The position numbers and the translations under genes were made by a program. A stretch of DNA of 64,000 nucleotides from the NCBI GenBank assembly GCA_905178155.1, contig CAJINV010000006.1:1303876-1367875 (forward strand), read 5' to 3'. Positions 10,201 through 48,137 of the stretch are shown here, piece by piece. The stretch is from Amoebophrya sp. A120. Taxonomy: Eukaryota > Protista > Dinoflagellata. Numbering within the stretch: the first letter of the stretch is position 1; every line of letters begins with the position of its first letter. Below the pieces are notes generated by a model that was not told the DNA's origin, did not search any database, and was given only the letters and a program-made list of their open reading frames with translations.

Positions 10201-12835
10201 GCAAAAGTATCGTACTAGTAGGAATAACGTTACAAATTTTCTCAGCATGATGAGAAAGGAAACTTGTAATGCGGATTTAAGTTGGCAAAAAAATGTGTAA
10301 TGCATAAAATGCGATTAGTACGAGTGCGATACTTTTACAATGCATACTGGACCGGGTGCGACAACTTTGCGAAGTGCCCGGAGGAAGAGCGTATCAAATG
10401 CAAAAGTGTCTGGGTCTGGAAGAGTTCCAACTTGTCATGCTAAGTCTGGATCATGCAAAACTCTGTCTTGCGTGATCACCAAAAGCTGCACTTTTTTAAC
10501 CAACACGAGAGGCAGTTTCTCATGCAGAATAGGCATGATACAGAGCTCGCAAAATCTGTCATGCTAGGTCCTGCATTCCAGACCTCGTAGGGCATCGAAA
10601 TTTTGCATCACAAGTTTGTATTCTTCCAGACCCAGACATATTTGCAATCCATAGAGCGCCGCGACGCGCTGCGGGGCTATGCCCGGTACAGCGTGCCGAG
10701 GCTGAGCAACTCGAAATCGGTTTTCGCCAGGGAGTATAAATTGCAAAAGTGTATCGTAGTCATACTAGTAGAACTTCAACTTGCTCAACAGCATTTTTAC
10801 AAATGAAACTTGTAATGCAGAAGATCTACCTTAAGAAATACATTGTTGCACGATTGCAATCACTACGAGTACGATACTTTTGCAGTTCATACGGAGTGCG
10901 CCCGCTGCCCGGACGGGTGGGAGCCTGATTTGTGGCTGCGGCGGTGTGTGAGGGAGTAAGTAGTATTTTTGATGCTATCTAAGCATGACAGATTCTTGTG
11001 TGCTCTGAAGTGCGCATCCTTCCAACTTATTTCCACCAGACCCGGATGACTACATGTAATTCTAAATTATTTGCAATGCACGCAATACAAAATTGAAATT
11101 TGCAATGCAAAAAACGCTATACCAGGTTCCGCAACGAATGCGACATGGAGCTGCTGCATCTTTGCATGGACATATGGGAGTGCACAACTCCCCCTCCCCT
11201 CATTTGAATGACATGAGCAGCAACACAAGCAACGCAAGAAATATGGCTTCCGCATGACAAATCTGCAGACGGATTACAGCACTGTTTGAGGCTCCAAGTA
11301 GATTTCTCATGCAAACTGTGCTCGAGGGCAAGACGTGGATTTGGTATTTTGCATTACAAATGAGGGGGAGGGAGAGTTGTGCACTCTCATAGGACAGGTG
11401 CTATTATTATGACGAGTGCGAGCGGCACCAGTGTCTCGTTAACTGCGTATGAAATGCAAAAGCATCGTACTAGTATAAATCGCATGACAAATTTCCTCAG
11501 CATGAGAAATGAAATTTGTAATGCGGATTTAACTTGAGAAAGAAATTTGTAATGCATGACTGCGATTACTACGAGTACGATACTTTTGCACAGGATACTG
11601 CGCACGGGAGGACGAAAATCCCCGGTATGTTTTGCAAATATCGACCTGGGTCAACAGGATAGTTGTGATGCACGATTCCAAGGACAAAACGATCTGTGAT
11701 GCATGAAGACAAGTCGCCAGCGTTTTTGTCGTGCTAGAAGCCAGTTTGTCATGCGTTCCCCTGATACGGATGAATTGTGAATTCGTAACAAGCCCTTTAA
11801 GAAATTTCTCATGCCGTTATGCCTCACAAGCGGCTACTCTGCGATGGAAGGTTCAGCAACACAAGTTTCCAGGAGACCCAGATCGATATTTGCGGTGCAT
11901 ACTAGGTGCAGGGAAGCAATGCTGGAAACTTGCGAGGAGTTGAATTCTTTAACGCGGGAAATGGTGATTACCGATCCGAGTTTATTACCAGCCAGCGCGA
12001 CGACGGTATAATGATTTGTCTTTGTCATGCTAGACGAGGTAATATCTTCAGATGCGACATACGCTATAGCGCAATACAAACAGCCGTAGAATTAAAAACA
12101 ACATACTAGGTCACGACCTCTACGACCGGCATCAACGAAGATTCCGGTTTGTCTATGCAAGAAAAAAACTATGTAAGTGTACACTTGTGTTGCAGAACAT
12201 GCAACATAGTTACACCTGTCATGCCAGACAGCCATGAAGCCCTCTACTTTTCATGTGTGTTTTTCCTTACAAGCCACGCATGACAGGTTTTCTCTGTCAT
12301 GTAAAGCAAATTATTTGTGATGTTGTTCCTCAAAGAAAGTTACACTTACACACTTTTTTTCTGGATATTGTCCGTCCTAGCCGCGATGGAGGTGGACTAC
12401 CAGTGCAATACTGTGAGGAAAAATCCCCCCTCACCATATCGAAAACGAAATTTGTGATGCTCTATTTGAGTACACAAATTGACTTGTATTGCTAGAAGGC
12501 CAAGAAATGCAGACGATGCCCCGTTTGCAGGCAATTTGTCATGCTGCTTCCGATTTCCAGCTGCCTCCTGTCGTGCTGAAGATGCAAGGCTTTCCCACGC
12601 AGCCCAGCACTACAGTCCGCATCTTTTCCCTTCTAGCATGACAGCGTGATTTGTGATCACCAATCACGCTACACAAATCTACCATTGAGCATGGGGAGGG
12701 GGGTTTTTCCTTCTGATATGCAATCTGAAGTGCGGGAGAAACACCGCGAGTGGGTTGAAACTGTCGAGTACTGTGGCTTTGGTGGCGATTTTGATGTTGA
12801 CGGTGGGGGCGGGTGGCGGGGGGATTTTTGTTTAG
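7210..12835 (+). CDS. Cysteine-rich secreted/surface protein, 16 exons, C-terminal hydrophobic (TM or GPI-signal) tail
   Basis: Signal peptide MFFFLASSIIIPEASA. Removing 15 introns gives one frame with CYNPVCPAGYWKCC, MECLPCRKGDYCTGC, CARCPDGWEPD, ending VALVAILMLTVGAGGGGIFV*. Confidence 0.8.
7416..7673. mobile_element. Introner family A (TIR TAT..tgcaaa.atgtctgggtctggaag)
   Basis: TSD gtgtg/gtgcg. Confidence 0.9.
7734..8042. mobile_element. Introner family E (TIR TATgg..gtgtcaggatcgaaatcgac)
   Basis: TSD cgttc/ctttc; similar to 52350-52655. Confidence 0.9.
8078..8302. mobile_element. Introner family D (TIR TATgagagtgcacaactccccctcc)
   Basis: TSD cgtct/cgtcg. Confidence 0.9.
8480..8498 (+). 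other. Relic dinoflagellate spliced leader
   Basis: GTAGCCATTTTGGCTCAAG = 3' 19 nt of DinoSL DCCGTAGCCATTTTGGCTCAAG; followed by AT, not the GT donor of an SL-RNA gene. Confidence 0.9.
8482..9500 (+). mobile_element. Retroposed SL-trans-spliced transcript nested in an introner
   Basis: Starts with SL, ends with a (TAC)n tail, flanked by cttgt/cttgt; internal ~50-bp direct repeat near 9293 and 9380. Confidence 0.7.
9852..10133. mobile_element. Introner family F (TIR TATcctgagtaaaaacgt.ccca)
   Basis: TSD cacgc/cacac. Confidence 0.9.
10193..10346. mobile_element. Introner family B
   Basis: TSD ctgca/ctgga. Confidence 0.9.
10392..10653. mobile_element. Introner family A
   Basis: TSD gagcg/gagcg. 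Confidence 0.9.
10735..10891. mobile_element. Introner family B
   Basis: TSD gggag/cggag. Confidence 0.9.
10956..11125 (+). other. GT-AG intron with introner vestiges
   Basis: GTAAGT...ctATAccAG; joins CVRE|FRNECD; internal gcatgaca motif. Confidence 0.75.
11173..11391. mobile_element. Introner family D
   Basis: TSD ggaca/ggaca. Confidence 0.9.
11448..11597. mobile_element. Introner family B
   Basis: TSD ctgcg/ctgcg. Confidence 0.9.
11626..11901. mobile_element. Introner (TIR TATg...gcaaatatcga.ctgggtc) that also has GT-AG ends (11625-11905)
   Basis: TSD cccgg/ctagg; G-TAT...ATA-ctAG. Confidence 0.85.
12006..12109 (+). other. GT-AG intron with introner vestiges
   Basis: G-TATaatg...caacATA-ctAG, internal tttgtcatgc; joins ASATT|VTTST. 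Confidence 0.75.
12154..12367. mobile_element. Introner family G (TIR TAT.caagaaaaaaact.tgtaagt)
   Basis: TSD ttgtc/ttgtc. Confidence 0.9.
12409..12718. mobile_element. Introner family C (TAC start)
   Basis: TSD tgcaa/tgcaa. Confidence 0.9.
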
Positions 12836-13992
12836 GGAAAACAAGACGCAGGTTCAAGTTGATCTATCGGATTTTTGCTTCGAAGATGAAATGTACTGAG
12901 TCAGCAAATTCGATATCGTTTTTGTAGTACTGAGAAATTAATGGACAACATTAACAAGAGGTGGAAGTAGCAAGTAGTAGTAGTAGTACAAGCACGCAAG
13001 GCAGAAGTAAAAGTGAAAGTCGTTTAGTCGCGAAAAAAGCTGGCAGATGAAGATCAAAACTAAAGGGTCAGACTGTGAATAAAATCGAAAGTGCGGCGAG
13101 CTCCTCAAAAAGCCCGCGTGTGCGTTTTAACCGATTGCAAAAATCGTAATATGGAACGCTGAAGAATAAATAGGAACTGGTCTCAAAACAGGCATCAAAC
13201 GTTAATTAAAGTACTTATACATAGAATATCAGATGAGCTAGGCAAACAGTACACAAAATCATGTAGGGCTAGAACACCCCAGTTGCAATCGACGAAAAAG
13301 ACGAAATAAATCAATTTGAATGACGCAGCGGAAAAATCAAGAGCTTTGTAAGTATAGTGATTTTTGCGTTGAAACTGCAGTTTATTATGCTGCCACGAGG
13401 CGATAATTCGAATTCCTGTAGATAATCGCGATGTTGTTGCACAGCAATTATTCCGTGTCCGCTACGCTGAGGCATTCATAGCAATCGCACATTGAAAAAG
13501 GAAATGAACTCCACAAACTCGGTCACTGCTCAACACCAAAGGCAGAAACTCGGTTGTGCGCTGCATCCGACGATGCTGCAGCAATGCTGGTACAAGATAC
13601 CACTGAATTTCGGTCGTGATTATACGTATGCAATTGCGGTGCCAGGAACAACTGCTGCAATCGGACCACCCGTGGCTGTCAAGAGTCGACTTCAACGATG
13701 ATCTGGAATTGATAGATGGATGTTTCTTTTCTCTACTTTTCGAATTTCACTAGTGCAAATAAAAGGATTCGACCACTACCACTTCAAAACAGCGGCCTCT
13801 GAAAAATTGTAAAATCTATCATCTGTGGTCAAGAACATAACCTGACGACCCTTCCTTATTCACAACACCACAAAAGTTTTATTTGTTTTTCATTTTCATC
13901 CATCGACGTCGATTTTTCCATCTAGTATTGAACACCAATAACCACATACTACTACACCAAGCGAAGAACCGACTCCTTCAACACACCACAAA

Positions 13993-18900: not shown

Positions 18901-19630
18901 ATGAAGAGGTGAGTAACGAAAATTTACCGAAGCGGGTGCAGAAACAACAGGTGGAGTATTATCCCACAAAAAAAGTGTTACAGTTACACATTTGTAGTCA
19001 ATTCAGCAACACAAATTTCTCTGGATGGGAGAGAAAACTTGTAATGCAGAAATCCTAGCGGAAAACACCTATGAAACGGAGCTCCCATGCATATTCGGCA
19101 TGACAGAGTTTGTCTGTCTTGCTTGACCTGCAACACAATGTGTAACTGTAACACTTTTTTCTTCCGATAAGTACTACGACTTGAACAACAGTGGAAATTT
19201 GAGCTATTTGAGTACGGAAGAGGAAACAAATACTACTTCTGCGTTGAACAACATGAGCAGTACGAAGACAGCAGTAGAGAAGCAGCAGAAGTTTGTCCAG
19301 CAAAAGAACCAGACAGCTGCAGTTCACAGCCCGACCACGCCATCAAACACCTCTCCTTCTGCTTCACCCCATGCACCAAGCGGGAAGAGCAAGGGAGCAA
19401 AAGAGGGTCCATCCGTTGAAACGCTGCACCTGCATATCGAGGGAAAGGTGCAGTTGACGAAGGAGTATTTGGAAGGCGGCAATAAAGCTGGGGAGCAGCA
19501 GACGCAGAGCAAGGTCGAAATAGATAATTTCAGTAAAAACAGCAGTACCACCGGGATCGACAGTGAGAATTTGGAAGCGAATCCGATCGAAACTGACGCC
19601 GCGGCGGTGTCGTCGTCGCATGAGGAGTGA
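15942..19630 (+). CDS. Short-chain dehydrogenase/reductase (DHRS7-like) with N-terminal TM and low-complexity extensions, 6 exons
   Basis: TGATSGIG, NNAG, YAASK, PGFVRTN motifs; GT-AG intron 16668-16777 plus four introners. Confidence 0.88.
17136..17355. mobile_element. Introner family G (ACA end)
   Basis: TSD aaaca/aaaca. Confidence 0.9.
18057..18209. mobile_element. Introner family B
   Basis: TSD ctggt/cttgt. Confidence 0.9.
18581..18901. mobile_element. Introner family C
   Basis: TSD tgaag/tgaag. Confidence 0.9.
18960..19169. mobile_element. Introner family H (TIR TATc.ca.aaaaaagtgttacagttacac)
   Basis: TSD agtat/agtac. Confidence 0.9.
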
Positions 19631-24342: not shown

Positions 24343-27300
24343 ATGAGTCCTACTGCGTCGGGCTCTTTCAGGGCGCGCGATTTGGCCATGCTTTCGTCCA
24401 GCAGCAAGAGGAACAAGTCGTGTTTTCCTTGCTTCTTGCTGGCACTCGCCGTGTTTCTGCTTTCCTCGAAACCTACCGCTGCCGCCCCGACACCGCCCCT
24501 CCCGACCTTCCAACCTTCGTGTCTATGAATTGCGAAAGCATCGTACTACAAGTAGTAATTGCATTACAAATTACCTCAGCATGACAAATGGAATTTGTCA
24601 TGCTGTTTTACCTTCAGGACAAGATTTGTCATGCATAATTGCAATTAGTACGAGTGCGATACTTTTGCACAGGATAGTGTCACAGCTGCACGAATGGGGA
24701 TGTGTACAACGTTATCCGCAGTAATTTCCCCGTACTATGTACAAATGCTGTTTCTGCATGAGAAAACTTGCCTTCAGTCGTATTCTAGCATGACAGGTTG
24801 CTCACTACAAGTTAGCGAAATTTGTGATGCATTTTGTACAACATGTACTGGAAATTTGTATTGCATAAACGTGTATAGCCAAAAATGCGAGTTCCAGCCC
24901 TCCCTCTTCACGGAAACCAGCGATTTCTACCTATCCTGTGCAAAAGTATCGTACTCGTAATCGTATTGCCATCATGCATAACAAATCCTGTTTTTAAGGT
25001 AATTCCGCATTACAAATTCTATATCTCATGCTGAGGACGAAATTTGTAATGCATTTGTACGAGTACGATACTTTTGCAAAGCATACTACCAAACGCCGAA
25101 CAACAGCTCGTGTCAAACCGCATTAGGCACTGGGGCGATCAGCTTGCAAGAAATCCTGCGCCAGCAGACCGAATCGAGGCTGAGCGAGCAACAGTTAACG
25201 CAAACCTATGAGACGAACAGTACCAGTCCAGTGCTGTCCCCGAAATCCATCACAGTACTCGCAGGTACGACGATTCAAGAATTTGACGGGGAATGCACGT
25301 CCTACCCGGACAGCATCGCTTATGGAGTTCTCAAACGTTATATCCTTTACCGTTACATGAATTTGTAATGCAAGAATGGCAAAAGACAAAGAACGGAGGT
25401 TGCACCTGCAGCATTACAAATTCCGCACAGATTTAGGTGCTGCGTAGCCTTTCCAACATTTGTCATGCGAAGACGCTTCACTGTGTGGATGTTCATGCTC
25501 ATTTTGCATGACAAATCGAAATAATGTAACAGTTGAGAGCGTAACGTTTGAGAACGCCATATCGCTGATTGTGCCAAACTGGACAGCTACAGTAATAAAT
25601 ACAGCTCGCAGAACTCGATCAGCTTCGCGAATCCGGTTTCCCTGGCGAAGGACAGCTATGGAAACATCTTCGTCGCGGACAGCAACAATAACCGTGTCCG
25701 GATGCTGACCTGGTCGAAAGTGGTCGTAACAATCGTGAACTTATCCGGGTTTCGCGGGTTCCAGGGCGATTCCGGGCCGAGCCAGATCGCGTGGCTGCGG
25801 GGGCCGGAATCTGTAGCGGTGGACTCGCTAAACTGTGTATTGATTTCGGATTTTGGGAACCAAAGGGTGAGACGGGTGTTCATGAACGCGGCTAGCAGTT
25901 GGAAAAGGAAACTTGGGGGATTTTGGGGTTGGGTGTGGTTACTCTATAAAGGGTGGACGAATTCAGTATCGATACAACTGAAGATTTGCATCGCAGGTCG
26001 TGGTGTGCAGATGACACTGAGTCTACAGCCTAAAATTCGCATGGCAAATAACTACACCATCAACCTCTACCCCCCGATTCTTTCCTTCCATACCCGCTAC
26101 CCCCAAACGCACCTACACCTCCCCGACCGCAACCACCGTCGCAACCGATGCAGAAACCGCCGCGGCCGCGTATCAAGACAGGCTGCGGTCGCTACCGCAA
26201 ACCAGAATCCCAACGACGATCCAAACCATCGTTGGCTCGGGCGTCCGTGGGTCCGGCTGCGCCGCGTCGATTTCTAGTACATCGGAGATCTGCGACCCGT
26301 TGACCGCGAGACTTCGCTACCCGAGGGGGATTGCTGTAGACAGCGCCGACACGCTGTTTTTGATTGATTCGGGGAACCACGTGGTCCGGAAAATTTCCGG
26401 ATTGAATTCCACTTCCGGTTTTTACACCACCTTCGAAACGATCATCGGGTCCAAATCCCGCCCCGCGTACTACCCAAATCTTCACTACAGCAGCTCGGTC
26501 GCGGTGGCGTACCAAGGGCTGTTTGACCTAGATCCAATGCCGTACTCCGATGCGAACAGTGGGGAGTATTCGGCGGAAGTACAATTGTCAGAAGGTGTGA
26601 CGAATTTGGTCGTGGACAGCAACGATCATTTGTTTCTCCTCGATTCGGGCGGAAATCGGGTGTTGTTTGTGCCGAAACAACGGATTGACGGAACGACGGT
26701 GACAAGTAGTTCTAGTACTGGATTAAAATCCTACGGCGGCAAATTCGGACAGCTTTTAGACCACTATCGGAACCACTTTGTCTTGCACTTCGGGATATGA
26801 ACTGCAAAAGTATCATACTCGTCGTATAAATGCATTACAAATTTTCTCAGCATGAGAAATAAAATTTGTAATGCTGATTTGCCTTGACAAAGAAATTTGT
26901 AATGCAAGACCTGCATTTAAATTTATACGAGTGCGATACTTTTGCACAGCATACGGGAAGACGGCTAGTAATTTTACGGAGGTTTCGCTCGATCCGTTTT
27001 CGTATAGCAGCCGGTATTCCATGACGGTCGAGGAGCAGTTGGCTTCACTGCAGTTGGAGAACGTGGTCAGTAGTGGTACAGCGACAACTTCCGGCTCATC
27101 CGCAACAGCCTCTTCCACGACCTCCGGCGCCGACTCAAACGCCGACTACCTCCCGATTCTCCCCATCACGGCGAAATCGACGCCGGAATTGAACCCAGGA
27201 GTAACGACTAATTTTATCAACACGACCACAAAGACCGACTACCAGTTCGCCTACTGGACGCTCGGACCCCGCATTTTGGACAGCGCGAACCGGATTTTCG

Positions 27301-30300
27301 ACCAAAAAGCGTTGAACCAGGAGAACAAGCAGCTGCACCAACCGGTGGGAATGTGCCTGGACATGACGGAAAAAAGGGGGTTTGTGTTGGATTTCGGAAA
27401 AGAGGGGGAGAGTGTCATCGAGTGGAAATCGATGCCGACGGGCGAAGTGGGGAGGGATTTGAGCCTGCTGAATAAGCCGAAGATGATTTTTGGTGGCACT
27501 TCTACCTCTAGTAGTGGTGCACAATCATCCACGCAAACCACCACCTCCACGATCCTACCCTACCGGCGAGATCTCTTCTCTTCCATCGGATCCTCTGCTT
27601 ATCGTGAGCTGAAAGACGCAGCGCCGATCTCCGCAGTTCTAAAATACCCGGTTTCTGTCGGAGTTACGGGCACTGATTTGGCGAATTTAGTCGAAAACGT
27701 GAACTCGTTAGCCGGTGCAGGGTCGGCAACCACAGCAGTTACGTCGAACACCATCCCGAGGTTGTCGAAAAGTTTGGAAAAGGAGAAAATCACGGGGGAC
27801 TACTTGCAGTCGTATTTAGCCGTAAGTCCTACGAACCACACGCTATCTCCTCACTACAGCCAAGGATTAGAACTCCAGGGCTTGACGAACAGTTTTTCAA
27901 CATCCTCGACGACGTCTCAAAAACATGTTTTAACAGGCAGTCAGATTCTCGGGGGACTAGAAAACGCGGTGTGCGACTGTATCTGCCCGTTTGAACTGAT
28001 GCAGCTGCATGTCGGCCCGGCACAACAACCAAATTTGGACGAGAATCAGCTCTATTGTTTCTCCGTGCCACACCAGACATCTGCGGATTTTAACAACATT
28101 ATCGCCTGCCCGGACCGGAAAAACCCTTCGGCACAACTGTTCAACAGTTCTTCGAGTGTGACCTTGCAATTTGCGTACGAGAACTACTGCAAATTAATTA
28201 CGCAAATTCCGGTTTGGAACAACACGGCTGGTGGTGCAAATGGCGGCTACGCGACGTTTACGACGTTTGCAACCAAAACGGACTTCCAGAACTGGGTGGC
28301 AGCGACGGCAAATTCAGTGGTGAGGTCGATAATTATCGACGCAGTGCAGGGGGTTGCGTTGCCCAAACCGGTGGAGGTGTCGGGGATAGCGGTATAATAC
28401 AAATACATAGTGCTACCGCAATTTTCTTTTTTTTCTCATGCGTGAGAAGCAGAATGGTTGGGCCTTGTCGTGCACAGAGCACTATGCGCAGAGCATGAGC
28501 ACTACTTAGCTTGTTTTACCAGCTACAAAACGCAAAATGTTGATAATGTACTGTAAAATTCAGGTTGCCGACTGTTCCGACCTCTGTGACGCCGACATCA
28601 ATTGTCGGGGTTTCCATGGTTCTCACTACTTCACCAGCGCCACGGATGGGATGTTCGTGTCCAACTGTGTCTTACTCGAAGCTACTACGCCCTATCACGT
28701 CTACGCGTACACGAGTCGTCCGACATCCGTACTGGAGGCGGATTATGCAATGCAAAAGTATCGTACTACGTATAAATCGCATGACAAATTTGCTCAGCAT
28801 GAGAAATAAAATTTGTTATGCTGTTTGACCTTGGAAAGGAGATTTGTGATGCATGATTGCAATTACTACGAGACGAGTGCGATGGTTTTGCACTGGATAC
28901 GGATTTCGACGCTACAAAGTGGTCTTTCCCGCTCATCGCAGTGTCCCCCTACACCACCTCCGTGTGGCGTATGAGAGTGCACAAGATCTCCCCCTTGTTC
29001 GCCTCATCTGTGATGCAGAATCCCAAATCCAGTTGCTGCCCTGTAGCATGTTTGCATGACAAATTTTGGAAGAATCCGAAGCAGCACTACTACAGTCGGT
29101 TCATCACGTATGAGCTTGTCATGCACAGCATACACGTGTGTTGGTGTCTGCATTGCTGTTCATGCCTTAGTACAAATCAGGGGGGAGGGGGAGTTGTGCA
29201 CTTTCATATGGCGCGATCTCTCCCAAACCGCGACAGCCGCGACCGCGAACGATTACTCCTTCGACTTACTGCTTCATGATTCAACGAGTCAGCTCCAACT
29301 CCCGGAATCCGCCGTTTCGCTCGATATCAAATGCAAATATGTCTGGGTCTGGAAGATCAAGATTGCAACTTGTCATGCTACATCCGAAGCGTGCAAAAAT
29401 TTGTGTTGCATGAGCGCCAAAAGCTGTCCACTTTCGACGAAGTTGGGAGGGAGTTTCCCATGCAGGATAGGCATGACAGAGACCTCGCAGAGTCTGTCAT
29501 GCTAGGTCCCGCATTCCAGACCTCATGGGTCATGGAAAATATGCATGACAAGGCTGTAATATTCTTCCGGACCCAGACATTTATGCATTTGATACTAGAC
29601 CTAGTCGAGCAGTACTGTGGGACCACCGCGGTGATCAACAACAACGATACCGATGCGAATTTTCGCTCCGGGTACCGGAAATTCGCGCCGAAAATTTACA
29701 AGACGAGGACGAGCTCCGGGTGCGCTTATAACATCATCGGGTGTAAGCAACTGTGTCACGCGATCAGCTCCTGTAAGGCCATCGCCTACCCGGGATGTTT
29801 CTTACTCCAGAAAGAAATCGCTGGGTTCCCGGATACCAGTGGCACAACGGTAACGAACGCGAACTACAATAAGTTCCAACCAGAAATATCCTCTGGCCTG
29901 ATCAACAGCCGCCAATCCGCCGTGACCGAAAGCACCTTCCCCGCAACGTATCTCAAACCGGGAAGAAGTCTAGCGTCGATTGTCACGCAGACCAGCGAGG
30001 GAATCGGCGGCGCGAAGGGGGGCGCGGGGAGTCGGGAGTTTGAACCGTTTGACGATCTGACGAACAACAAACTGCTCGCGCCGACCAGTTATGAATTGCA
30101 AAAGCATCGTACTAGTTCTAGTATGAATTGCATTACAAATTTCCTCAGCATGAGAAATGGAATCTGTAATGCTGATTGACGTTAGGAAAGAGATTTGTAA
30201 TGCAAAACTGCAATTACTACGACTAGTACGATACTTTTGTACTGGATACCAGTTGTATCGTGAACGACACGGACGTTTTGATAACTGACGCGACTTCCCA

Positions 30301-32055
30301 CACCGTGAAGAAGATCGGGATTGAACGACTGACCGCGAGTTGTGGGAATCTGACGAATTTGTTTTCCACGAGCGATATTTTCAATTGGGCGAAACTCGCG
30401 CAGAAGGTACAGGGAACGTGCTCCAGTGGAGCTTTACAAGCGAATCTTCCGTACGACTACTTCTCGTTAACCAGAATGGATCTGTTCATGAGACAAGCGG
30501 AAGTGACGGTGGTGGGAGCGGCTGCTACAGCAACTGCTGCAGAAGGGGCAGCCGCTGGAGAAGGCGCCGCTGCAGGAGCAGCTACTCCGCTAGCAGCAAC
30601 CCCCGCCGCGAACCCGTTCAAAGTGCTGCAAACGGAATTACTAATTGACAACAGTGTGAGAAGCAACACGAAGATACAGCAAATATCTTCAGTCCCCGCA
30701 ACTACAGCAGAGAGTTTGGTGAAACAAACCAGGTTTTCCTTCGCGAATCTACTCTGCTACCACCCTTTGATTCCCGAAACGGTTTTCTCGAGAATACCAG
30801 CAACGCCGGATCCTTTGACAAGTGCGGAAAATACGACTTTGCTACTCGAGCAAGACGATTCGGATAATTTCAACAACCCGTATTTGGATCTGAAAACCCT
30901 CTGCGATTTATGCAACTACGAAATCCGGGAAGAACTGCAGGTCGGGAATAGTGTAGTGCCCACGACGACGAAAACAGTTTCCATTGAAGTGAAAGACTAC
31001 CACCAGTTTGAGTACTCGTTTTGGCAAACCGTTTTGATCCGAACGGATGAGAATGGCTATGTTCTCCCGGGGGAAAATGCGACGAGTGCTACGACGACTG
31101 CCTCGCTTGTTTCAAACAGCTATTTAGAAATCGCGGGGTACTTTTTCAAATCAGCTTTGTCAACCGACGCTGCTATTGAGAGGAAAAATCCCCCCTCCCC
31201 ATATCGAGACGAAGTTTCTGATGCTGGATTTCCATTCACGCATCAGATTTGTCTTGCAGTAGAGGAGTGCAGGCATATGTCACGCCTCAGGCGAGAGGTT
31301 TTGACATAGGCGCCTAGCATGACAAACGTGTATGCTCTAAGCCAAACAGCATCACAAACCGCCTGCAAAATGCGGAACGCTTTCTGGACTTGCCTTCTTG
31401 CAAGACAGACAGGATTTGAGGTCGCAAATGCGCATCACAAATTTTCAGACGGATACGTTTTCGATATGCGGAGGGGGGATTTTTCCTTACGATAGCTGCG
31501 GTTTCATCTTCGGGTAGTGCAATTTCCTTCGACCTCACTCTCGCAGACCAAATCACCAGCCCGACGAGGACGCAGATTGCGCAGATCATCGCGAATAATG
31601 CGGCTGTAGTAACTACTTCAACCAATTCCGCGACCACTTACTGGACGGGGACAATTCAAGTCACTAGTCGTGACCCGGTTTTGAAGACGCAAAGGGATTC
31701 CCCAGCAACCGGCACAACCATAACGGACATCAAGTCGAAATCCAGTTGTCCGCCGAAGGATTTGTGTCTGTGCAGAAATAATCTCGTGGAGACGATCCAG
31801 AGTAAAATTTTTCAGCAGTGTCCGGTTGAGAATTCGTTTGTAGACAACTGGCATCGGACCGTCGCGGGAGGGTTGCACTGTTTGATGGGAGATCAGCTGT
31901 TGTACCAGCAACGGGCGCTGGTGACGAATTCGACGGGGGTAGTGAGTTCTGGTACGAGTACTGGGTCGGTTTTGACCACACCAAGTACAAGTCTACGGGA
32001 TAAAATCCGGTCCGCTTTGGTTGCGGAGGTGGTGGCTGCTGGGGGAGGGACGTGA
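24343..32055 (+). CDS. Large secreted NHL-repeat protein with Cys-rich modules, ~13 exons
   Basis: Hydrophobic N-terminus. NHL repeats NPVSLAKDSYGNIFVADSNNNRVR, GPESVAVDSLNCVLISDFGNQRVR, YPRGIAVDSADTLFLIDSGNHVVR. Eleven introners plus GT-AG intron 28392-28563. Confidence 0.8.
24524..24676. mobile_element. Introner family B
   Basis: TSD gtgtc/gtgtc. Confidence 0.9.
24713..24867. mobile_element. Introner family L
   Basis: TSD aacgt/aacgt. Confidence 0.85.
24932..25085. mobile_element. Introner family B, reverse orientation
   Basis: TSD ctacc/ctacc. Confidence 0.9.
25321..25561. mobile_element. Introner family I (TIR TATgg.gttctcaaacgtta)
   Basis: TSD tcgct/tcgct. Confidence 0.9.
25893..26092. 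mobile_element. Degenerate introner
   Basis: ggaaaaggaaacttggggg...cccccgattctttccttccATA inverted ends; removal needed to keep the NHL frame; left boundary uncertain. Confidence 0.55.
26796..26953. mobile_element. Introner family B
   Basis: TSD cggga/cggga. Confidence 0.9.
28744..28899. mobile_element. Introner family B
   Basis: TSD cggat/cggat. Confidence 0.9.
28970..29208. mobile_element. Introner family D
   Basis: TSD tggcg/tggcg. Confidence 0.9.
29325..29594. mobile_element. Introner family A
   Basis: TSD ctcga/ctaga. Confidence 0.9.
30090..30248. mobile_element. Introner family B
   Basis: TSD ccagt/ccagt. Confidence 0.9.
31174..31494. mobile_element. Introner family C
   Basis: TSD gctgc/gctgc. 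Confidence 0.9.
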
Positions 32056-38762: not shown

Positions 38763-38768
38763 GGAACA

Positions 38769-39020
38769 TATAACCCGCTCAGGTGTTACAATCTCAAACG
38801 TCACAATAGAATTCGGAATTTGTGTTGCAAGAAGTGCATGATCTACCCTGCTCCCACAGGATTGCGCATGACAAGTTCTGGAGTCCCAATCCGCACCACA
38901 ATCTGCCGAAATTTGTATTGCAGAAAGTGGAAAGCTGTCCGAGTCTGTCATGTTGATCATGCAAGACAAATCTCAGATTCTATTGTAACGTTTCGGATTG
39001 TAACGTTTGAGCAGGTCATA
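38769..39020. mobile_element. Introner family J (TIR TATa.cccgctcaggtgttacaatc)
   Basis: TSD gaaca/gaaca; similar to 55346-55606. Confidence 0.9.
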
Positions 39021-40274: not shown

Positions 40275-43200
40275 ATGCACTCTTCAACTGGTTCCAACAA
40301 GCTGTATGGCGGCCACGGGTCCAGCCACGCGGCCTCGTCCGCTATGAAGATAGCCTCCGGCCAGCAGCTGCTAACCGAATTATCCCAGACGTACCGCTGC
40401 CTGGAGCGAGAGCAGCACGAAAGGGAGATTCAATTTGCGGAGCAAGAGGCGAAGATCAGCTATTTAGAAACGCAATTACTGGTCCAGGAAAAACTCAACC
40501 AAGATCTGCGGAAACGGGTGAAGATGCTGGAGTATTTGTTACGGAGGGAGCGGCAGGCGAATATGACAGTGCGCAACTACTCCCCCTCCCCCTCATTTGT
40601 ATTGCATGAACAGCAATACAGGCACCTCCACGTGTGGAGCCTGTGCACGACAAGTTCATGTGCCTGGTGTAGTGCTGTTTGGGCTTCCGGAATCTGTCAT
40701 GCAAACAAGGACCACGCAGCAGCGCTTGGATTTTGTATTTTGCATGACAAACGAGGAGGAGGGGGAGTTGTGCACTATCATATCGTACAGTTGTAGTTCA
40801 GGAGGGGGTGGTACACGGAGCAAAAATGCGGGGGCTGGCGCGGTGGAAAGTGGCGGAGGGGGTCGTGGAGCAAAGGATCCACAGCACAAAAAAGTAGACA
40901 CTTCTACAAGCAGCGGGAAGGATCAGCAGGACGAGGACGAACACGAGGGCGGACATGCGGATGCCAAAAAAGATGGCAAAACAAGTTCTGCTTCTGCTGA
41001 GGAAGACGCAGCCGACAGCAGTACCACTGCCGCGGAGGACGTCGCGAATGCTTCGTCGGTGCAAAGTAGTGCAAGGAGAAGAAGCGCGAGTACGGACGAG
41101 GATGAAGAGGGAAGAGGAACGTCTGATTCGGGTGGTGCAGAAGACAAAGAGAAACAGACGAGCTCTGCTGGTGCCTCGTCGAGCACTGCAACATCTACTT
41201 TGAAAACGAGTACGGAAGAACAAGATGAAACCGAAAGTGGTGATGGAAAAATTCAGCCTACGGACAGCCAACCCTCAGAAGAGAAATCTTCTTCCTCATC
41301 AAGTAGCAGTAGTTCCTCCTCCTCTTCCGCTAAGAATCCCGCCGACAGCAAAGAACGACAATCTTCAGCGACTAGTAGAGAAAAAATCTCCTCCAAGACC
41401 GCCAAAAGGACAAAGCCGAAATCCCGTCTCACCACCCTGCAAGAAATTGCGGCGAAGCTGCCGACGCAGCGGGCGCAGAGTGCGAAGAGCATTTTGAGAA
41501 AATACTTGAAAACATCCGTGTTTTTGACGGAAGGCGGCGCGGGGGATTTTGATCTAGGTACAGATAGTAGCTTTTTGGCATCGTGGTGTTATTTGTGATG
41601 TGTAGGGCTAGGGTTCGATGATGAGGTGCATTTGTCATGCGACGTTGTATAACTATTTCTAACTCTAAGTGGTCTAACAGATGCTCTTGCCATGCTGGCA
41701 GAGAAGCAGGACTACAAATCTTTTCGGCGCGACCGCGACCACACCAGAGGAGACCTGCACGGCAATGCGGGGCGGGATCTTATACGAATTGCAAAAGTAT
41801 CGTACTTGTAAGAATCGCATGACAGATTTCCTCAGCATGAGAGATGGAATTTGTAATGTGGATTTTTTAGTACTTTGAGAATGCATGACCGCAACGGGGT
41901 TCGCCTAAGTCGGTCATTTGTATGCAAGGCGTTGGGTTACCCGGTCGGCAGAGCCGATCCACAACGAACGAACGAACAATCTTTATTCTTGCGAGTGCGA
42001 TACTTTTGCAGTGCATAGTCTTCGCACGGGCGAGATTTGCGGGAAGTTGAAAGAGGAACATCAAGTGGCAGTAGTGGCGGTGGAGGCAGTGGAAATCAAC
42101 ATCATTCCAGTAGCTCCCATGGGGGCGAACATGACGGCGGCAGAACCTCAACTTCCTCTTCCTCCTCCGCCCAACACGCGACGGCTTCAAATAACGCCGC
42201 TGTTTCCGCCACTGCAAACAACACTACCCCGACGTCCAAGCCCTGGCGACACTACGCCTCGGTTTCCGGCGCCTTTGTCGGCTCGGTCGTGTGTCTCGCG
42301 TACGACAACCAGCGGGCGATTTTGGTCTCTGGGTCCGAGGACGGGATTGTTTGCCTGTTCGACATGCACAGCTTTAACACGCAGGAGCACGTGGAGCCGT
42401 TTGCGTCGCTCGTGCACCACCGGGCAAGGAAGCTGTGCCAGTCCATTGCGGCGGACTTTACCAAGAGTATTGAACCTATGATTTTTGTAAAAACAGAGAT
42501 TATAATTACATTGGAATTTTTTGTTCTTTGTCATGCTGAATCATGTAACACCAATGTGTGATGTGCAGTTGTGATGCAGAATATGTATATGCTCCTTCCA
42601 AACAAATTTCTCAGATCTCTTCCTCACCGCGGACGCTGCTGGAGACCTCGTTTTGTGGAAAATCAACATCTCCAATCCGAATTCCACCTCGACAAAAGGC
42701 GCTCTGGATCAAAACACGACAACCACGGTGAACAAACAAGATGTGGCGCACTGCAGCTCCGAAATTTCCGATATTTGTCTGGTGAGTTGTGGAGCTACGG
42801 GCAGTGGTAACTCTAGTAATTCCTCTTCTTCTTCCTCGGGAGCTGCAACTCCAAACACGACAACCCTTCTTGTCGCCACCGTGCATTCCGAGGAGAAGAT
42901 GCTTAGAATCTGGTCGACGGTTACCCAAGATAGTAGTGGTGCTGGCATTGCAAATAGTATCAGTACGTCCTCCTCGAACTTGAACAAAATCCAAATCGAA
43001 GTGGAATATGAGAATGCACAACTCCCCCTCCCCCTCATTTGTCATGCAAAATCGCAAATCCAGGCTGTGCCTCTTGGCACTGTTTGCATGACACGTTCTG
43101 GTAGCCCAAATAGCACTACATTTTTCCAGTGGAAATTTGTCATGCAGAACCGGCATTCTTACTGTTGCTTGTATTGCTGTTCATGCTATACAAATGAAGG

Positions 43201-46200
43201 GGAGGGGGAGTTGTGCGCAGTCATATAGAGTACGACGATTTCAAAAACGCCCGTCCGCTGTGCTGCGACTTCAACACCGGCGCAGGTAGGGCGAACGGAA
43301 ATGCTGGCACGAATGCAAGTGGTACGTCTGCGGTGGGAGGAGGAGGTGTTGCCTCTTCATCTCCATCTGCAGCCACTGGTACGACCACCGGAGCTGATAG
43401 CACGGTCACAGGAACAAGCTATGCTGTTCTCAAACGTTACATTCTCAACTGTTACAAACATGATTACTATCTAAACTGCAGCAGCTGGTCAAAAATGCAG
43501 GCGAGGGGTATGTTCTGGGGTATGTTCGGGGGTGTGTCAGGGGTATGCAAATGGCCGTCAATCACAGGCGGAATGCAATTTTTTGGCGAAAAAGCAACAG
43601 GTGGGGTATAAACATACCCCAGACACACCCCAGACACACCCCAGACACACCCCAGACATACCCCAGACAGACCCCCGAACACACCCCAGGCAAAAAGTCC
43701 GAACATACCCCAGACACACCCCGGACACACCCCGGGCCGACTTTCCGACACACCCCGGGCAGACTTTAGGACACACCCCGGACACACTTTGGGACCTCGC
43801 CACGCGAGATGTGCAATGGCGGACTCCAGTTTGTCACGCAGGCCGCCAGCCTGTCGAGCTTCCCGGGCCCCGTTGGCAAGGCCCAGGGACGAAAGGCGCC
43901 CTCGGTCAGCGCGGGGGCCCGGTCCCCGCGTCATGACCTGGGGGCCAGCTTTGGGCGCTTCCCGGACACCGTACGGCCCAGGGGCAAAAGCCCTAGGTCA
44001 GCGCGGGGACTCGGTCCTCGCGTCATGACCTAGGGGCCAGCTTTGGGCGCTTATATCCCGGAAACCACCCGCACGGCCCAGGAGGTACAAAAGCCCTAGG
44101 TCAGCGCGGGGACTCGGTCCCCGCGCCATGACCTAGGGGCCAGCTTTGGGCGCTTCCCGGAAACTAACCGGCCGCACGGCCGAGGAGCAAAGGCCCTAGG
44201 TCAGCGCGGGGACTCGGTCCCCGCGTCATGACCTGGGGGCCAGCTTTGGGCGCTTCCCGGAAACTAACCGCACGGCCCAGGGGCAAAAGCCCTAGGTCAG
44301 CGCGGGGACTCGGTCCCCGCGTCATGACCTAGGGGCCAGCTTTGGGCGCTTCCCGGAAACTAACCGCACGGCCCAGGGACAAAAGCCCTAGGTCAGCGCG
44401 GGGACTCGGTCCCCGCGTCATGACCTAGGGGCCAGCTGCAGATCCAGCGCCAGACTCTTCCTTTCTGTTCTCTTTGTTCGCGGTAGGTTAACGGGCCTAG
44501 TGTGGGCAAGCAGAGGGGCTCCGTCCGCAGATCTGTCGTGGATCAGGGGACGCAGGCCACACAGAAACACCGGGCTGCAGTGGTCTGCCTGCCCAGTGCC
44601 ACCACAACCCCCGAACTCGTCCCAGAGAAATGCCGGAAGGTCGCCGCATGGGGACTCTGTCCCCGTGCTCGGACCTTGTTTGTCATGCAAAATGACCATG
44701 ACCCGTCAGACGATCAAGCTGCTTCGCATGACAAATTCTCGCAAGGCTGAATAGCACTGTAATCCGGATCAAACCTGTAATGCAAGACGCGCAAGGTTCC
44801 CCCTCTCACCTGTGCTAGTCTCGCATCACAAATTTATGTAAGAGTTGAGAATGTAACGTTTGAGAACGCCATACAAGCCACCTCCTCGTTGTGGGGTTCG
44901 ATAACGGGATGTGTGCGATGTACGAAGTGTATCAAGTGGAGAAAAAAATCACGGAAGAACAGCATTCATCTGCTGTAGAAGAAGCTCCTTCTGCAGGCGA
45001 GGACTCTACTTCGTCTTCTCAGACCTCCGAGGACACGACGAACACCCCCACTGGGGAAGTAGAGAACAACAAGAAACCCGTATCAAATGTAAAAATGTAT
45101 GGGTCTGGAAGAATGCAAGATTTGCGATGCACGTTTTCCATGACCCATGAGGTCTGGAATGCGAGACCCAGCATGACAGATTCTTTGCGGTCTCTATCAT
45201 GCCTTTCCTGCATGAGAAACTCTCTCTCAACTTGGTCGAAAGTGGACACCTTTTGGCACTCATGCAACACAGATTTCTGCATGATTCAGATTCAGCATGA
45301 CAAGCTGCAACCGTCCACCCCCAGACATTTTTACATTTGATAACCCGGAACTACAACCGAAACTGGCAAGGACACCAGCGAGACCACAGAAGATGCAGCT
45401 GATATTGTGAGGAAAAATCCCCCCTCCCCATATCGAGAGCGGAATTTGTGTTGCTCCTGTATTTGAGTACACAAATCACATCTGTCTTGCTGGAGAGGAC
45501 TGCAGACCCATACCAAGCCTGAGCACAGAGGCTTTGACTTAGGCGCTTAGCATGAAAAGCGTCCGTGATGTAGGCTCAACAGCATGACAAACCGCCTCCA
45601 TAATGGGACGAAAGCTGCTGCCCTTGTCTTCTTGCAACACAAACGTGATTTGTGACCTCAAATCAGCAACACAAATTTTCGAAAACCTACCTCTTCAATA
45701 TGGGGGGGGGATTTTTCCTTGCGGTAGCTGACACGGAGATGAAACTGAAAGACAAAGAGTCTGACCACGACGGGAAAGAAACAAAAGACAAGGAAAAGGA
45801 TGCAGCTGCTGCTGAAACAGAAACTGGAAGTGCAGAGAAAGGTGATGATAACAAGGAGAAAGCGAGCACTACTAGTACTACTACTTCAGGATCATCATCA
45901 TCATCATCATCTACGTCTCCAACCAGTACTGGCAATGACAAAATCGTCGTAGTCCAGAAGGTGTGGCAGATCAAGCGGCTTCGGCACATCGAGTATTGCA
46001 AGGAAAAATTCCCTCTCCCCATATTGAAAACGCATCGGTCTGAAAATTTGTCATGCACATTTGTGACCACAAATCGGGTCTGTCTTGCACAGAGGCAATC
46101 TCAGGCTGTCCGCCACGTTATGCAGGCGGTTTGTATGTAGTGAGGTCACCGAACGGTTCTAACCGGGGAGTTTTTTTGACACCCAGACAGCAAAACGGCC

Positions 46201-48137
46201 GCCAGTTTTCAAGCGGGCGGAAGCGTTTTTGGACGTAAAAAATTTTCAAGTATCAAGCGGCCGGGGCTTTGATAGCAAACAAGCCCGGTCGAAAACTATC
46301 GATTCGCACTTGATAAAACGACGCAGGAGAGCCGGCAAAAGGGGCGCCCTTCGGAGGCGCCCACCGCCTTAGTTTCTGGCGATTTGGGGCTCCCAAAAAG
46401 GGGCGCGCAAAAAACACGCCCAAAAACAGAACAGCGAAACAGCCTGGCACGGCCGCGATTTCGGAGCATTCTGGGCGGCCGCGAAAGCGGTTGCCTTTTC
46501 GCCGGTTTTAGAGCCTGGGAAGCTTTGCAAAAAGCGCCGACGTGAAAAATAAAAACGCGAAAAATAAAAAGCGCCCCCGACGCGCAAAGCCAATCCGCAT
46601 GCTATGGGCCCGGTTTTTCTTCGCTTTTTGGGCGCCCCCCGTGGCACCCGGATCGGCCCCATAGCATCGGGGCTGGCTTTCGGAAAGGAATTTTGGAAAT
46701 GTGCCAAAATTTGCGACGCTTCCCAAGTGGCCGCCATACCGTGCGGCATAACCTTACTCACGGCGGTATGGCGAGCCCATAAAAAGCAAAGCCGCGGCCA
46801 AGGCGGCGGCCGGCAAAAAAACGCCCACGACCTCACTACCCCCGCCCCGGCGGCTATATTTGGTAATGCTGTAAGGCCTACGGGGCAGCCGTCTACCATG
46901 CTAGGCGCCTACACCAGAAGGCCCCTATCTAGGCTTGCGATGTGCGTGCAATCCTCTACTGCAGGACCAATCTGATTTGTGTACGCAAATGCAGCATCAC
47001 AGATTTCTTTGGCGATATGGGGAGGGGGGACTTTTCCTCTCAATATCGAGGTGGCCACTTTCATGCACAATCGAGAGCGGGGACAGACTATGCATTGCAA
47101 ATATGTCTGGGTCTGGAAGGATGCAACTTGTCATGCTGTCATTGGATTCCAAGAAAATCTGTGTTGCATGACCAGCAAGAGGAATCCAGTCTGTGCTACG
47201 TGGAGAGGGCATTTCTCCTGTGGAATAGGCGTCAGGAAGCCCTTCAAAAATCTGTGATGCTACGTCATGCATCACAGACGTCATGGGTCATGGAAAATAT
47301 GCATGACAAACCTGGCATTTTTCCAGACCCAGACATTTTTGCATTTGATACAGACGAATGCCCACGGCAGCCAACACGCGGCTTGTTTCACGGTCAGGTC
47401 GATTTTGCCAAACGTGGTGGCCGCGGGATTTGGGGATGGATTCCGCCTGATCGACGTTTCTGCAGTCACGGGGAAAGAGGTATCTAGAATTTAGAATTTC
47501 GTTTTGTAGTCATGCTGAATCGGCATACTGCGTGGCCTTTGTCATGCTTGAAGGCAGCAAAAATCGTCAATATGATAAAAATACAGATCTGCGCTTTCGA
47601 CGGTTTATCCGACCGACTTTCCGGGAACCCGAACCCCCACTTAAAGAACAAAAAGTCTTACCTGACAAGCTCCCACTCTAAAACTTTGGTCGGGTACGAC
47701 GCGGTGACTGGGCGGTTGATCCTGGGCGACCGGCTGACGGGAAAAGTGGTGATGTGGTGCTTGAAGCAGCGAAAAATCGTGCAGGAGATCACCTGCTTCG
47801 ATTCCGAAATTTCCAGCTTACTCCTCGGTGTCGAAGATGTTTTGTTCGTCGGCGGAAGAAGCGTCGGGAATAACATCGGAGAGGACGATGACGATTTTGA
47901 AGTATCCTGTGCAAAAGTATCGAACTCGTAGTAATTGCTATCATGCATGACAAATATCCCTTTTTAGGTAAATCAGCATTACAAATTCCACTTTTCTTCT
48001 TGACAAAATTTGTGATGCAATTTATACTAGTACGATACTTTTGCAATGCATATGAAAACGGTAACAACAATGCGGTAACCACGGGAATTGGGAAAAACGA
48101 TATTTTTGGAGGGCACATCCGAATTTTGACAAGATAG
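40275..48137 (+). CDS. Striatin-family protein (N-terminal coiled coil plus C-terminal WD40), 13 exons
   Basis: QEKLNQDLRKRVKMLEYLLRRERQ matches the striatin coiled coil. WD40-like LVSGSEDGIVCLFD, FLTADAAGDLVLWKI, LVVGFDNGMCAMYEV. Nine introners plus GT-AG introns 41558-41680, 42467-42614, 47480-47586. Confidence 0.82.
40562..40782. mobile_element. Introner family D
   Basis: TSD gcgaa/tcgta (degenerate). Confidence 0.85.
41783..42017. mobile_element. Introner family B with ~80-bp nested insert
   Basis: TACgaattgcaaaag...cttttgcagtgcATA; TSD degenerate. Confidence 0.8.
43007..43225. mobile_element. Introner family D
   Basis: TSD tggaa/tagag. Confidence 0.85.
43610..43790. repeat. 11-bp minisatellite (acacaccccag)n
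   Basis: Multiple imperfect copies; inverted relatives ggggtatgttc at ~43505-43547. Confidence 0.85.
43898..44438. repeat. ~97-bp tandem repeat, ~6 copies, each with a long hairpin
   Basis: ccctaggtca-gcgcgggga-ctcgg-tccccgcg-tca-tgacctaggg at ~43991, 44094, 44194, 44290, 44386. Confidence 0.92.
45081..45342. mobile_element. Introner family A
   Basis: TSD acccg/acccg. Confidence 0.9.
45403..45726. mobile_element. Introner family C (GTA end)
   Basis: TSD gctga/gctga. Confidence 0.9.
45994..47045. mobile_element. Introner family C enlarged by a ~730-bp insert
   Basis: TSD tcgag/tcgag. Confidence 0.9.
46136..46863 (+). mobile_element. Nested non-autonomous element with asymmetric inverted repeats (Helitron2/Helentron-like)
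   Basis: gtagtgaggtc (46137) / gacctcactac (46829), then ccgcc-cc-ggcgg hairpin near the right end. Confidence 0.5.
47089..47350. mobile_element. Introner family A
   Basis: TSD cagac/cagac. Confidence 0.9.
47903..48052. mobile_element. Introner family B, reverse orientation
   Basis: TSD tgaag/tgaaa. Confidence 0.9.

What the first reader, a model, noticed from the sequence alone, without database searches (positions are those of the whole stretch)
10956..47586. Apparent series of introners turning into canonical GT-AG introns
Seen: 11625-11905 has intact TIRs and also G-TAT...ATA-ctAG. 12006-12109 keeps G-TAT...ATA-ctAG but has lost its TIRs. 10956-11125 is GTAAGT...ATA-ccAG. 28392, 42467 and 47480 start GTAT, end AG and keep the internal motif or a variant. 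29325 has gained ATA-ctAG only. Inference: a G before TAT makes a donor, and mutation of the intronic TSD copy to nnAG makes an acceptor, after which the TIRs decay. This would be a direct route from transposon to spliceosomal intron.
Basis: partly seen in the sequence, partly recalled or inferred. Interest (0 to 1): 0.75.

Follow-up and report, generated by a model that had tools for sequence, protein, structure and literature searches.

The report
Introner GT-AG ends arise by chance
In the marine parasite Amoebophrya A120, one transposon-derived intron likely picked up normal GT-AG ends by mutation, but across 316 such elements these ends are no commoner than chance, so the proposed step-by-step conversion of transposons into ordinary introns is likely drift rather than a directed route.

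Summary
The window is Amoebophrya A120, whose TAT...ATA introners are published. 11625 is a real GT-AG introner; a second genome has the empty site CCCGG, so its AG likely arose in the intronic TSD copy. But the seven sites are not a series. Among 316 intact elements, 6 are GT-AG (6.5 expected), 5 of them from insertion into NNAGG; AG appears twice and disappears four times; no age trend. GTAT is the commonest donor of TIR-less GT-AG introns (21 of 38 predicted); none of the 38 has ATA-nnAG, and the set shows no TSD or TIR trace. 12006 and 28392 have no family homology; 12006's ATA-ctAG is absent in its ortholog. What survives: a TGTCATGC-type motif shared by introners and TIR-less GT-AG introns, weak homology at 10956, one clear fossil elsewhere, and a suggestive excess of G gains (10:3). 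Splice-site recruitment from TSDs and boundary conversion are already published for other dinoflagellates.

The parts
11625..11905 (+). GT-AG intron that is an intact TAT...ATA introner (element 11626-11901; TSD CCCGG 11621-11625 / CTAGG 11902-11906); the one likely conversion
   Evidence: TIR 17/22; 64 bits to family f0; matches P0001; absent in ortholog L076, empty site CCCGG
10956..11125 (+). TIR-less GT-AG intron, GTAAGT...ATACCAG, shared with the second genome; weak family f0 similarity
   Evidence: 14.5 bits (1 of 200 motif-preserving shuffles higher), ortholog 15.4 bits (0 of 200); diffuse alignment; opposite A/T polarity to introners
12006..12109 (+). TIR-less GT-AG intron, GTATAA...ATACTAG, shared with the second genome where it ends ACATAG; two motif copies conserved
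   Evidence: no family hit; motif positions 16/16 identical vs 58/88 others; CTAG would be an in-frame stop if it had been the target
28392..28563 (+). TIR-less GT-AG intron with two motif variants, no ATA-nnAG
   Evidence: RNA-contig pieces end at 28390 in X1 and X2; frame; no family hit
29324..29598 (+). AT-AG non-canonical introner (element 29325-29594; TSD CTCGA/CTAGA); direction of the C/A change unknown
   Evidence: difference is synonymous
42467..42614 (+). TIR-less GT-AG intron in the striatin gene, two core motifs
   Evidence: frame; 8.4 bits, not above shuffles
47480..47586 (+). TIR-less GT-AG intron in the striatin gene; ATA lies 3, not 4, nt before the end
   Evidence: frame; 9.8 bits vs shuffle maximum 9.5, marginal
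25898..26096 (+). Decayed introner that stays non-canonical (GT...CG); 3' cut exactly 4 nt after ATA; donor inferred from frame
   Evidence: RNA-contig piece begins at 26097; frame; 5' part shared with L076
7210..12835 (+). Host gene, 424-aa cysteine-rich protein, 15 introns (13 TIR elements, 2 TIR-less GT-AG)
   Evidence: identical to the C-terminal 424 aa of P0001; no Pfam family
24343..32055 (+). Host gene with NHL repeats (holds 25898, 28392, 29324)
   Evidence: ORF of 1761 codons; PF01436
40275..48137 (+). Host gene, striatin-like WD40 protein (holds 42467, 47480)
   Evidence: ORF of 1086 codons; PF08232 above cut-off

Best explanation
These are Amoebophrya A120 introners and ordinary GT-AG introns side by side: the introners are cut one base before TAT and four bases after ATA whatever the end letters are, so GT-AG ends likely appear only by chance, mostly by insertion into an NNAGG target and occasionally by a likely neutral change in the intronic TSD copy (11625). 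Shown: 5-bp TSD, TAT...ATA ends, either orientation, the -1/+4 register, GT-AG at chance frequency. Inferred: a relaxed spliceosome (U1 snRNA and snRNP27 not detected in A120, PMC7789003) reads N-U-A-U and does not need the terminal Gs, so there is little selection to convert; GTAT is simply this genome's preferred donor (a +4U preference goes with loss of SNRNP27K in yeasts, PMC10581693 abstract), which is also why a TAT-ended transposon is tolerated. The TIR-less GT-AG introns are older introns of undetermined origin; some are probably fossils of elements, but not recognisably through the G-TAT...ATA-nnAG path.
For: Register: P0001 fits cut positions 4 or 5, P0002 fits 3 or 4; RNA pieces give >=3 at 18057, <=4 at 18960 and exactly ATA+4 at 26096; a cut after position 5 would make a stop at the L076 element opposite 8336; Table S4 lists only N-T donors as predominant in A120. 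Chance frequency: 6 of 316 GT-AG vs 6.5 expected, 5 with perfect NNAGG TSD; donors GT 102, AT 78, CT 76, TT 60 and AG only ninth among acceptors; AG intronic-only 2 vs exonic-only 4, all four non-synonymous; 3 of 8 elements with an upstream NNAGG copy lack AG in the intronic copy; two polarised losses of G at +1; no trend with divergence, n=307. TIR-less GT-AG introns: GTAT 21 of 38, ATA at -7..-5 0 of 38, TSD matches 26 vs 25.4 null and TIR 5.8 vs 5.6 null in the 47 before manual removal.
Against: G at intron +1 is gained 10 times and lost 3 times, against 10:25 at the other TSD positions (Fisher P=0.004), though the strand-mirror control is 9:6 (P=0.43) and the sign test gives P=0.09. The core motif is at 4.8/kb (window) and 2.4/kb (38 predicted) in TIR-less GT-AG introns vs 0.09 expected, and leans to GTAT introns (14/26 vs 6/22, P=0.08). 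L036:1808 is a TIR-less GT-AG intron with 50 bits of family f1 homology. 15% of A120 canonical introns were reported to have IR+DR, more than a 2% birth rate would obviously give. The sample sees only elements with recognisable TIRs, 249 of the 316 come from another genome, and the 38 introns are ab initio predictions with a self-trained donor matrix.
Confidence: 0.68

Rival explanations
1. One reading: introners are progressively converted in the -1/+4 register (G at +1, then nnAG), TIRs then decay, and this supplies the GTAT...AG introns.
For: 11625 polarised by an empty site; G gains 10:3; 2 of 10 window introns with ATA-nnAG; shared motif; weak homology at 10956 and 47480; precedent of boundary conversion in Symbiodinium.
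Against: AG gains 2 vs losses 4; GT-AG 6 vs 6.5 expected; no age or TIR trend; 0 of 21 predicted GTAT introns with ATA-nnAG (95% upper bound 13%); 0 of 48 keep the introner A-run/T-run; 12006 ortholog lacks the motif and its CTAG cannot have been the target.
Confidence: 0.1
2. Many TIR-less GT-AG introns are fossils of an older introner wave that became canonical by recruiting new GT and AG sites off the original register; only the internal motif was kept.
For: L036:1808: f1 remnant, TAT at +7 and ATA 7 nt before the end, only the GT-AG reading keeps frame; motif ~25-50x enriched in GT-AG introns and absent from 26,191 nt of exon and 16,171 nt of intergenic DNA; motif conserved in the 12006 ortholog; 24.8% of A120-specific intron positions are canonical.
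Against: Only 1 of 38 predicted introns has clear family homology after removing 9 mis-called elements; 26 of 38 have no broad motif; the motif may be a general intron signal acquired independently; no RNA for L036.
Confidence: 0.25
3. 11625 was born GT-AG (target CTAGG); the exonic copy later drifted by two silent changes and the second genome lost the intron precisely, so even this case is no conversion.
For: Both differences are synonymous (CCT AGG / CCC CGG); TSD mismatches overall are enriched for silent differences (39 of 80 vs 21 expected); the element is only 72% identical to its nearest relative found, so may be old; precise loss restores the mRNA sequence and would look like an empty site.
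Against: Needs insertion and two exonic changes before the split plus a precise loss; 8 of 8 informative empty-site differences fall in the intronic part, 4 of them non-synonymous or stop; its TIR arms differ from consensus in concert, as in a distinct subfamily.
Confidence: 0.3

Closest known systems
Introner elements / non-canonical introns of Amoebophrya sp. A120 (Farhat et al. 2021, PMC7789003; read: abstract, passages, sections 12 and 16, supplement passages and part 3; figures not held)
   Same: Same organism; TAT-starting IRs followed by an A-run, 3-5 nt DRs (5 bp in Fig. S19 legend), ~240 nt; 15% of canonical introns carry IR+DR; predominant boundaries are all N-T donors.
   Different: The paper calls splice positions variable and, in what was read, gives no fixed register, no shared internal motif and no test of conversion.
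Polarella glacialis ILE class 12 and Symbiodinium boundary conversions (Roy et al., bioRxiv 10.1101/2020.10.14.339549; passages read, supplements closed)
   Same: 5-nt TSD NNAGG supplying the acceptor and the G of the donor, completed by the element's first base: the same geometry as the born GT-AG elements here; TSD comparison used to show biased 5' splice-site conversion (GA to GC) over time.
   Different: There the splice sites must be present at insertion and conversion is biased; here ~98% of elements splice without them and no acceptor bias was found.
Euglenid 'intermediate' introns (Milanowski et al. 2016, PMC4770533; abstract)
   Same: Hairpin non-conventional introns with one or both canonical ends once read as transitional; concluded mostly special cases, with a single example suggesting conversion.
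   Different: Different lineage and end grammar (+4..+6/-8..-6 pairing); no 5-bp TSD families shown in the abstract.
Fungal introner-like elements degenerating into regular spliceosomal introns (Collemare et al. 2013, PMC3609843; abstract)
   Same: Repeated introns decay until indistinguishable from ordinary introns.
   Different: Fungal ILEs lack TSD/TIR (PMC9860276 passages); that they are canonical from birth is recalled, not checked.

Membership tests
Amoebophrya A120 introner elements | IR beginning TAT, then ~7 nt, then an A-run | tested here: met
   T+2 1.00, A+3 0.99, T+4 0.97, A at +12..+14 0.86-0.91 in 326 elements; met by 11625 and 29325, not by 10956, 12006, 28392, 42467, 47480
Amoebophrya A120 introner elements | 3-5 nt direct repeat at the boundaries | tested here: met
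   5/5 in 46 of 69 window elements, >=3/5 in 67; 11625 3/5, 29325 4/5; TIR-less introns 0-3/5 and no excess over null
Amoebophrya A120 introner elements | Repeated family | tested here: met
   478 elements in 15 families of >=3; 11625 64 bits, 29325 in f0
Amoebophrya A120 introner elements | Removed from mRNA | tested here: met
   RNA-contig pieces skip 17136, 18057, 18581, 18960, 21994, 22848, 26796; for 11625 only via deposited protein; 29325 by frame only
Introner-derived GT-AG intron (for 10956, 12006, 28392, 42467, 47480) | Homology to an introner family beyond the 8-nt motif | tested here: inconclusive
   10956 weak (14.5/15.4 bits), 47480 marginal, 42467 not above shuffles, 12006 and 28392 none
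Introner-derived GT-AG intron (for 10956, 12006, 28392, 42467, 47480) | Residual TIR or TSD in the -1/+4 register | tested here: not met
   End complementarity not above cross-pairs (21-61 of 96 higher; 12006 ortholog 3 of 96), A/T-run grammar absent
Introner-derived GT-AG intron (for 10956, 12006, 28392, 42467, 47480) | Position absent in distant relatives | not testable with these tools
   No eukaryote genome held; 10956 and 12006 are shared with the close second genome
Canonical U2 spliceosomal intron | GT-AG ends restoring frame | tested here: met
   for 10956, 11625, 12006, 28392, 42467, 47480; 29325 is AT-AG
Canonical U2 spliceosomal intron | Excision by the spliceosome via a branched lariat | not testable with these tools
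   needs lariat sequencing or snRNA knock-down

The most novel reading that the evidence does not exclude
A sizeable share of A120's own GT-AG introns are fossil introners: TIRs and TSDs are erased, new or drifted GT and AG ends took over, and the one thing kept is the TGT(A/C/G)ATGC motif common to all families, because a transposase-binding motif has been co-opted as the genome's intron-marking splicing signal. 11625 (fresh conversion), 10956 (faint remnant) and L036:1808 (clear remnant) would be stages of it.
Probability: 0.25. Interest if true: 0.7.

Novelty: new member of a known kind. Interest (0 to 1): 0.3.

Why it matters
If conversion were directed, A120 would show in one genome how an insertion tolerated without splice signals matures into an ordinary intron. 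The data say the end letters are largely neutral, which instead constrains the unknown A120 splicing machine: it needs U+2, A+3, U+4 and a fixed distance from ATA, not the terminal Gs. The two-genome comparison makes polarised tests of intron gain, loss and boundary change feasible, and the motif shared by introners and TIR-less GT-AG introns is a concrete handle on both intron ancestry and intron recognition.

Tried and rejected
No whole genome held, so no genome-wide A120 test. Run search: no holder on record as RNA; X1 and X2 behave as spliced contigs, X5 as DNA, and X5's repeats filled the joint table so only the piece table was usable; X8 laid 7 reads, no information. Direct junctions for the gene at 7210-12835 were not obtained. 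Homolog searches for striatin and NHL-gene exons returned nothing, so 42467, 47480, 28392 and 29325 lack a deposited-protein check. No introner motif match in viral contigs. The rest of the L076 contig is not held. The first ab initio intron finder, trained on the window, was too insensitive (5 introns at the main filter) and was replaced by a self-trained one (5 of 5 window calls passing the final filter were among my curated introns). Dropped rows: 219 of 471 locus elements (unoriented or weak TIR) and 5 with TSD <3/5; 180 of 227 predicted GT-AG introns failed filters and 9 of the remaining 47 were removed as mis-called or near-intact elements after inspection. Rejected: GTAT as a footprint of TAT ends (commonest donor generally, no accompanying 3' trace); hairpin extension as the cause of G gains (6 pairs made, 6 lost); 'motif in all introns' (26 of 38 lack it). 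Huff et al. 2016 not held; recalled only, not relied on. Literature searches for a published conversion test in Amoebophrya listed none; images of Fig. 3 and S19-S25 of PMC7789003 and bioRxiv supplements could not be seen and may bear on novelty.
Full report
Identity and setting. An exon of the gene at 7210-12835 hits a deposited protein of Amoebophrya sp. A120 at 100%. The window holds 69 curated TAT...ATA elements with terminal inverted repeats and 5-bp target duplications (46 perfect, 67 at >=3/5), and removing each with five bases, plus ten GT-AG introns, opens seven genes end to end. These are the introner elements of Farhat et al. 2021 (PMC7789003), who also report IR+DR in 15% of A120's canonical introns.

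Observation. 11625-11905 is an intact element with GT-AG ends; 10956 and 12006 end ATA-ccAG and ATA-ctAG; 28392, 42467 (end 42614) and 47480 begin GTAT and carry the motif; 29325 is A-TAT...ATA-CTAG. P0001 confirms 10956, 11625 and 12006 at protein level; RNA-contig pieces fit the 28392 donor. The others rest on reading frame.

Register. This holds: P0001 allows a cut after TSD position 4 or 5, P0002 after 3 or 4; left-aligned RNA pieces need >=3 at 18057, <=4 at 18960 and start exactly at ATA+5 for the decayed element ending 26096; a cut after position 5 would create a stop at one element of the second genome. Table S4's nine predominant A120 boundaries all have T second. Other notes of this scan report the same register on other DNA (unchecked AI notes, read after my own tests). 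So a target NNAGG gives a GT-AG intron at birth, and positions 1-4 of the downstream copy and position 5 of the upstream copy are intronic and free to drift.

Orthologous comparison. A motif scan of metagenome contigs returned 142 loci, 549,845 nt, from one other assembly with the same families; L076 happens to hold the ortholog of the 7210-12835 gene (exons 92-97% identical). Caveat: both differences are silent, silent mismatches are over-represented overall (39 of 80 vs 21), the element is only 72% like its nearest relative, and precise intron loss would leave the same empty site. Of nine differences at empty sites, eight are informative and all eight lie in the intronic part; two of them are losses of G at +1 (8078, and the L076 element opposite 8336). 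10956 and 12006 are present in both genomes. 10956 keeps ATA-CCAG; 12006 ends ACATAG in L076, and CTAG could not have been its target because TAG is in frame. 29325 has no ortholog in hand and its difference is silent, so 'gained' is open.

Population test of intact elements. 471 candidate elements were found in the loci; 252 could be oriented with a coding model that called 69 of 69 window elements correctly (in-sample), 249 with TSD >=3/5; with 67 from the window n=316. GT-AG: 6, against 6.5 if G and AG are independent; 5 have a perfect NNAGG TSD. Of 46 elements with G at +1 and one step from AG, 1 has AG. TIR score does not differ with G, AG or both (P 0.41-0.60), nor do G or AG track divergence from the family (P 0.73, 0.12). 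Limits: elements that have lost their TIRs are invisible to this sample, it is enriched for family f0, and most of it is not A120 itself.

TIR-less GT-AG introns. A self-trained gene finder predicted 227 GT-AG introns in 67 loci; 47 passed filters, 9 were removed on inspection as mis-called or near-intact elements. Of 38, 21 begin GTAT (6 of 16 already before a +4 term was learnt), none has ATA at -7..-5, and TSD-like and TIR-like matches equal permuted pairs (on the 47). Introners carry an A-run at +12..+16 and a T-run at -20..-16 (287 of 326); 0 of 48 GT-AG introns do, and they have the opposite polarity, including 10956 and 12006. Family HMMs score 11625 at 64 bits, 10956 at 14.5 (ortholog 15.4), 47480 at 9.8, 42467 at 8.4, 12006 and 28392 nothing. 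GTAT therefore needs no transposon origin; snRNP27 was not detected in A120 and its loss goes with a +4U preference in yeasts (PMC10581693 abstract), which I infer applies here. Conversely, elements can decay and stay non-canonical: 25898 (GT..CG) and 53079 (CT..TG, matches P0002).

What remains for ancestry. The core motif TGT(A/C/G)ATGC occurs at 8.9/kb in elements of otherwise unrelated families, 4.8/kb in the ten window GT-AG introns, 2.4/kb in the 38 predicted ones, and not at all in 26,191 nt of exon or 16,171 nt of intergenic DNA (0.09/kb expected, so the absences alone are not significant). Its two copies in 12006 are fully conserved while the rest is 66% identical, which suggests function rather than passive decay; in 10956 one copy is kept and one lost. 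L036:1808 is a GT-AG intron with a 50-bit f1 remnant whose ends lie off the -1/+4 register. So some ordinary-looking introns probably do come from elements, by more than one path; how many cannot be told without positions shared with A25.

Mechanism, committed. Shown: a non-autonomous TIR element inserts in either orientation with a 5-bp duplication and is cut at -1/+4 regardless of end letters. Inferred (about 0.7): a relaxed spliceosome reads N-U-A-U and a ruler from ATA; the terminal Gs are close to neutral; about 2% of elements are GT-AG at birth and a few more become so, or cease to be, by drift; TIR decay is not tied to this.

Comparison and novelty. Works like: Polarella class 12 ILEs (NNAGG target supplying the acceptor and donor G) and Symbiodinium boundary conversion; euglenid 'intermediate' introns, mostly special cases with one possible conversion; fungal ILEs decaying into regular introns; TSD-recruited splice sites generally. 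Member of: A120 introners for 11625 and 29325; not shown for the other five. Searches listed no paper testing conversion in Amoebophrya, and the three look-ups of earlier scan notes (24 rows) showed none on it. New here are one polarised example, a negative population test and the motif in TIR-less GT-AG introns. Interest 0.3.

Noticed in passing
window 7210-12835 vs L076:1800-5360: High intron turnover between two close genomes: 9 elements only in A120, 6 only in L076, 4 elements and 2 GT-AG introns shared; the same family sits at nearby but different sites (9852 vs ~9722; 12154 vs ~12394).
   Followed up: partly
window 24524-24676 vs L076:339-487: Element at the same site in both genomes but only 122 matching positions of ~150, and both TSD copies differ in concert at position 1 (GTGTC vs CTGTC/CTGCC): possible parallel insertion or replacement.
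   Followed up: partly
316 elements, window and loci: TSD mismatches are silent twice as often as expected (39 of 80 vs 21, maximum 32 in 300 draws): exonic drift, or leaky register putting both copies under coding constraint. Intron phase is biased 149/78/89.
   Followed up: partly
L036:1809-1995: GT-AG intron with a clear family f1 remnant, decayed TIRs and ends off the -1/+4 register; flanks resemble an acyl-CoA oxidase N-terminus (recalled; the 37-aa piece gave no Pfam hit).
   Followed up: partly
window 8398-9593: Element expanded to 1,196 nt by an internal ~1-kb insertion; the L076 ortholog is a plain ~150-nt element.
   Followed up: no
window 43420-44873 and 45994-47045: Long elements (1,454 and 1,052 nt) with perfect TSDs carrying tandem repeats (11-nt and ~96-nt units) or GC-rich cargo inside the striatin gene.
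   Followed up: no
window 41782-42021: Element whose frame-keeping removal fits -1 from TAC and +4 from ATA although the TSD matches only 1 of 5 in that register (4 of 5 when shifted by one); not RNA-checked.
   Followed up: partly
window 36239-36408: Possible GT-AG intron GTATGC...GCACAG followed by CATA, as if the acceptor lay inside an element end; boundaries unconfirmed, family score not significant.
   Followed up: partly
window 2170-7180: Blocks of 240-300 nt repeated at 93-94%; the deposited P0001 begins in them with 357 extra residues that look like a gene-model extension.
   Followed up: no
L076:1820-1899: The contig joins the NHL-gene ortholog, cut inside the 25898 intron, to the inverted end of the 7210-gene ortholog: rearrangement or misassembly.
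   Followed up: no
window 1454-1778: Intact element with perfect TSD outside any modelled coding region.
   Followed up: no
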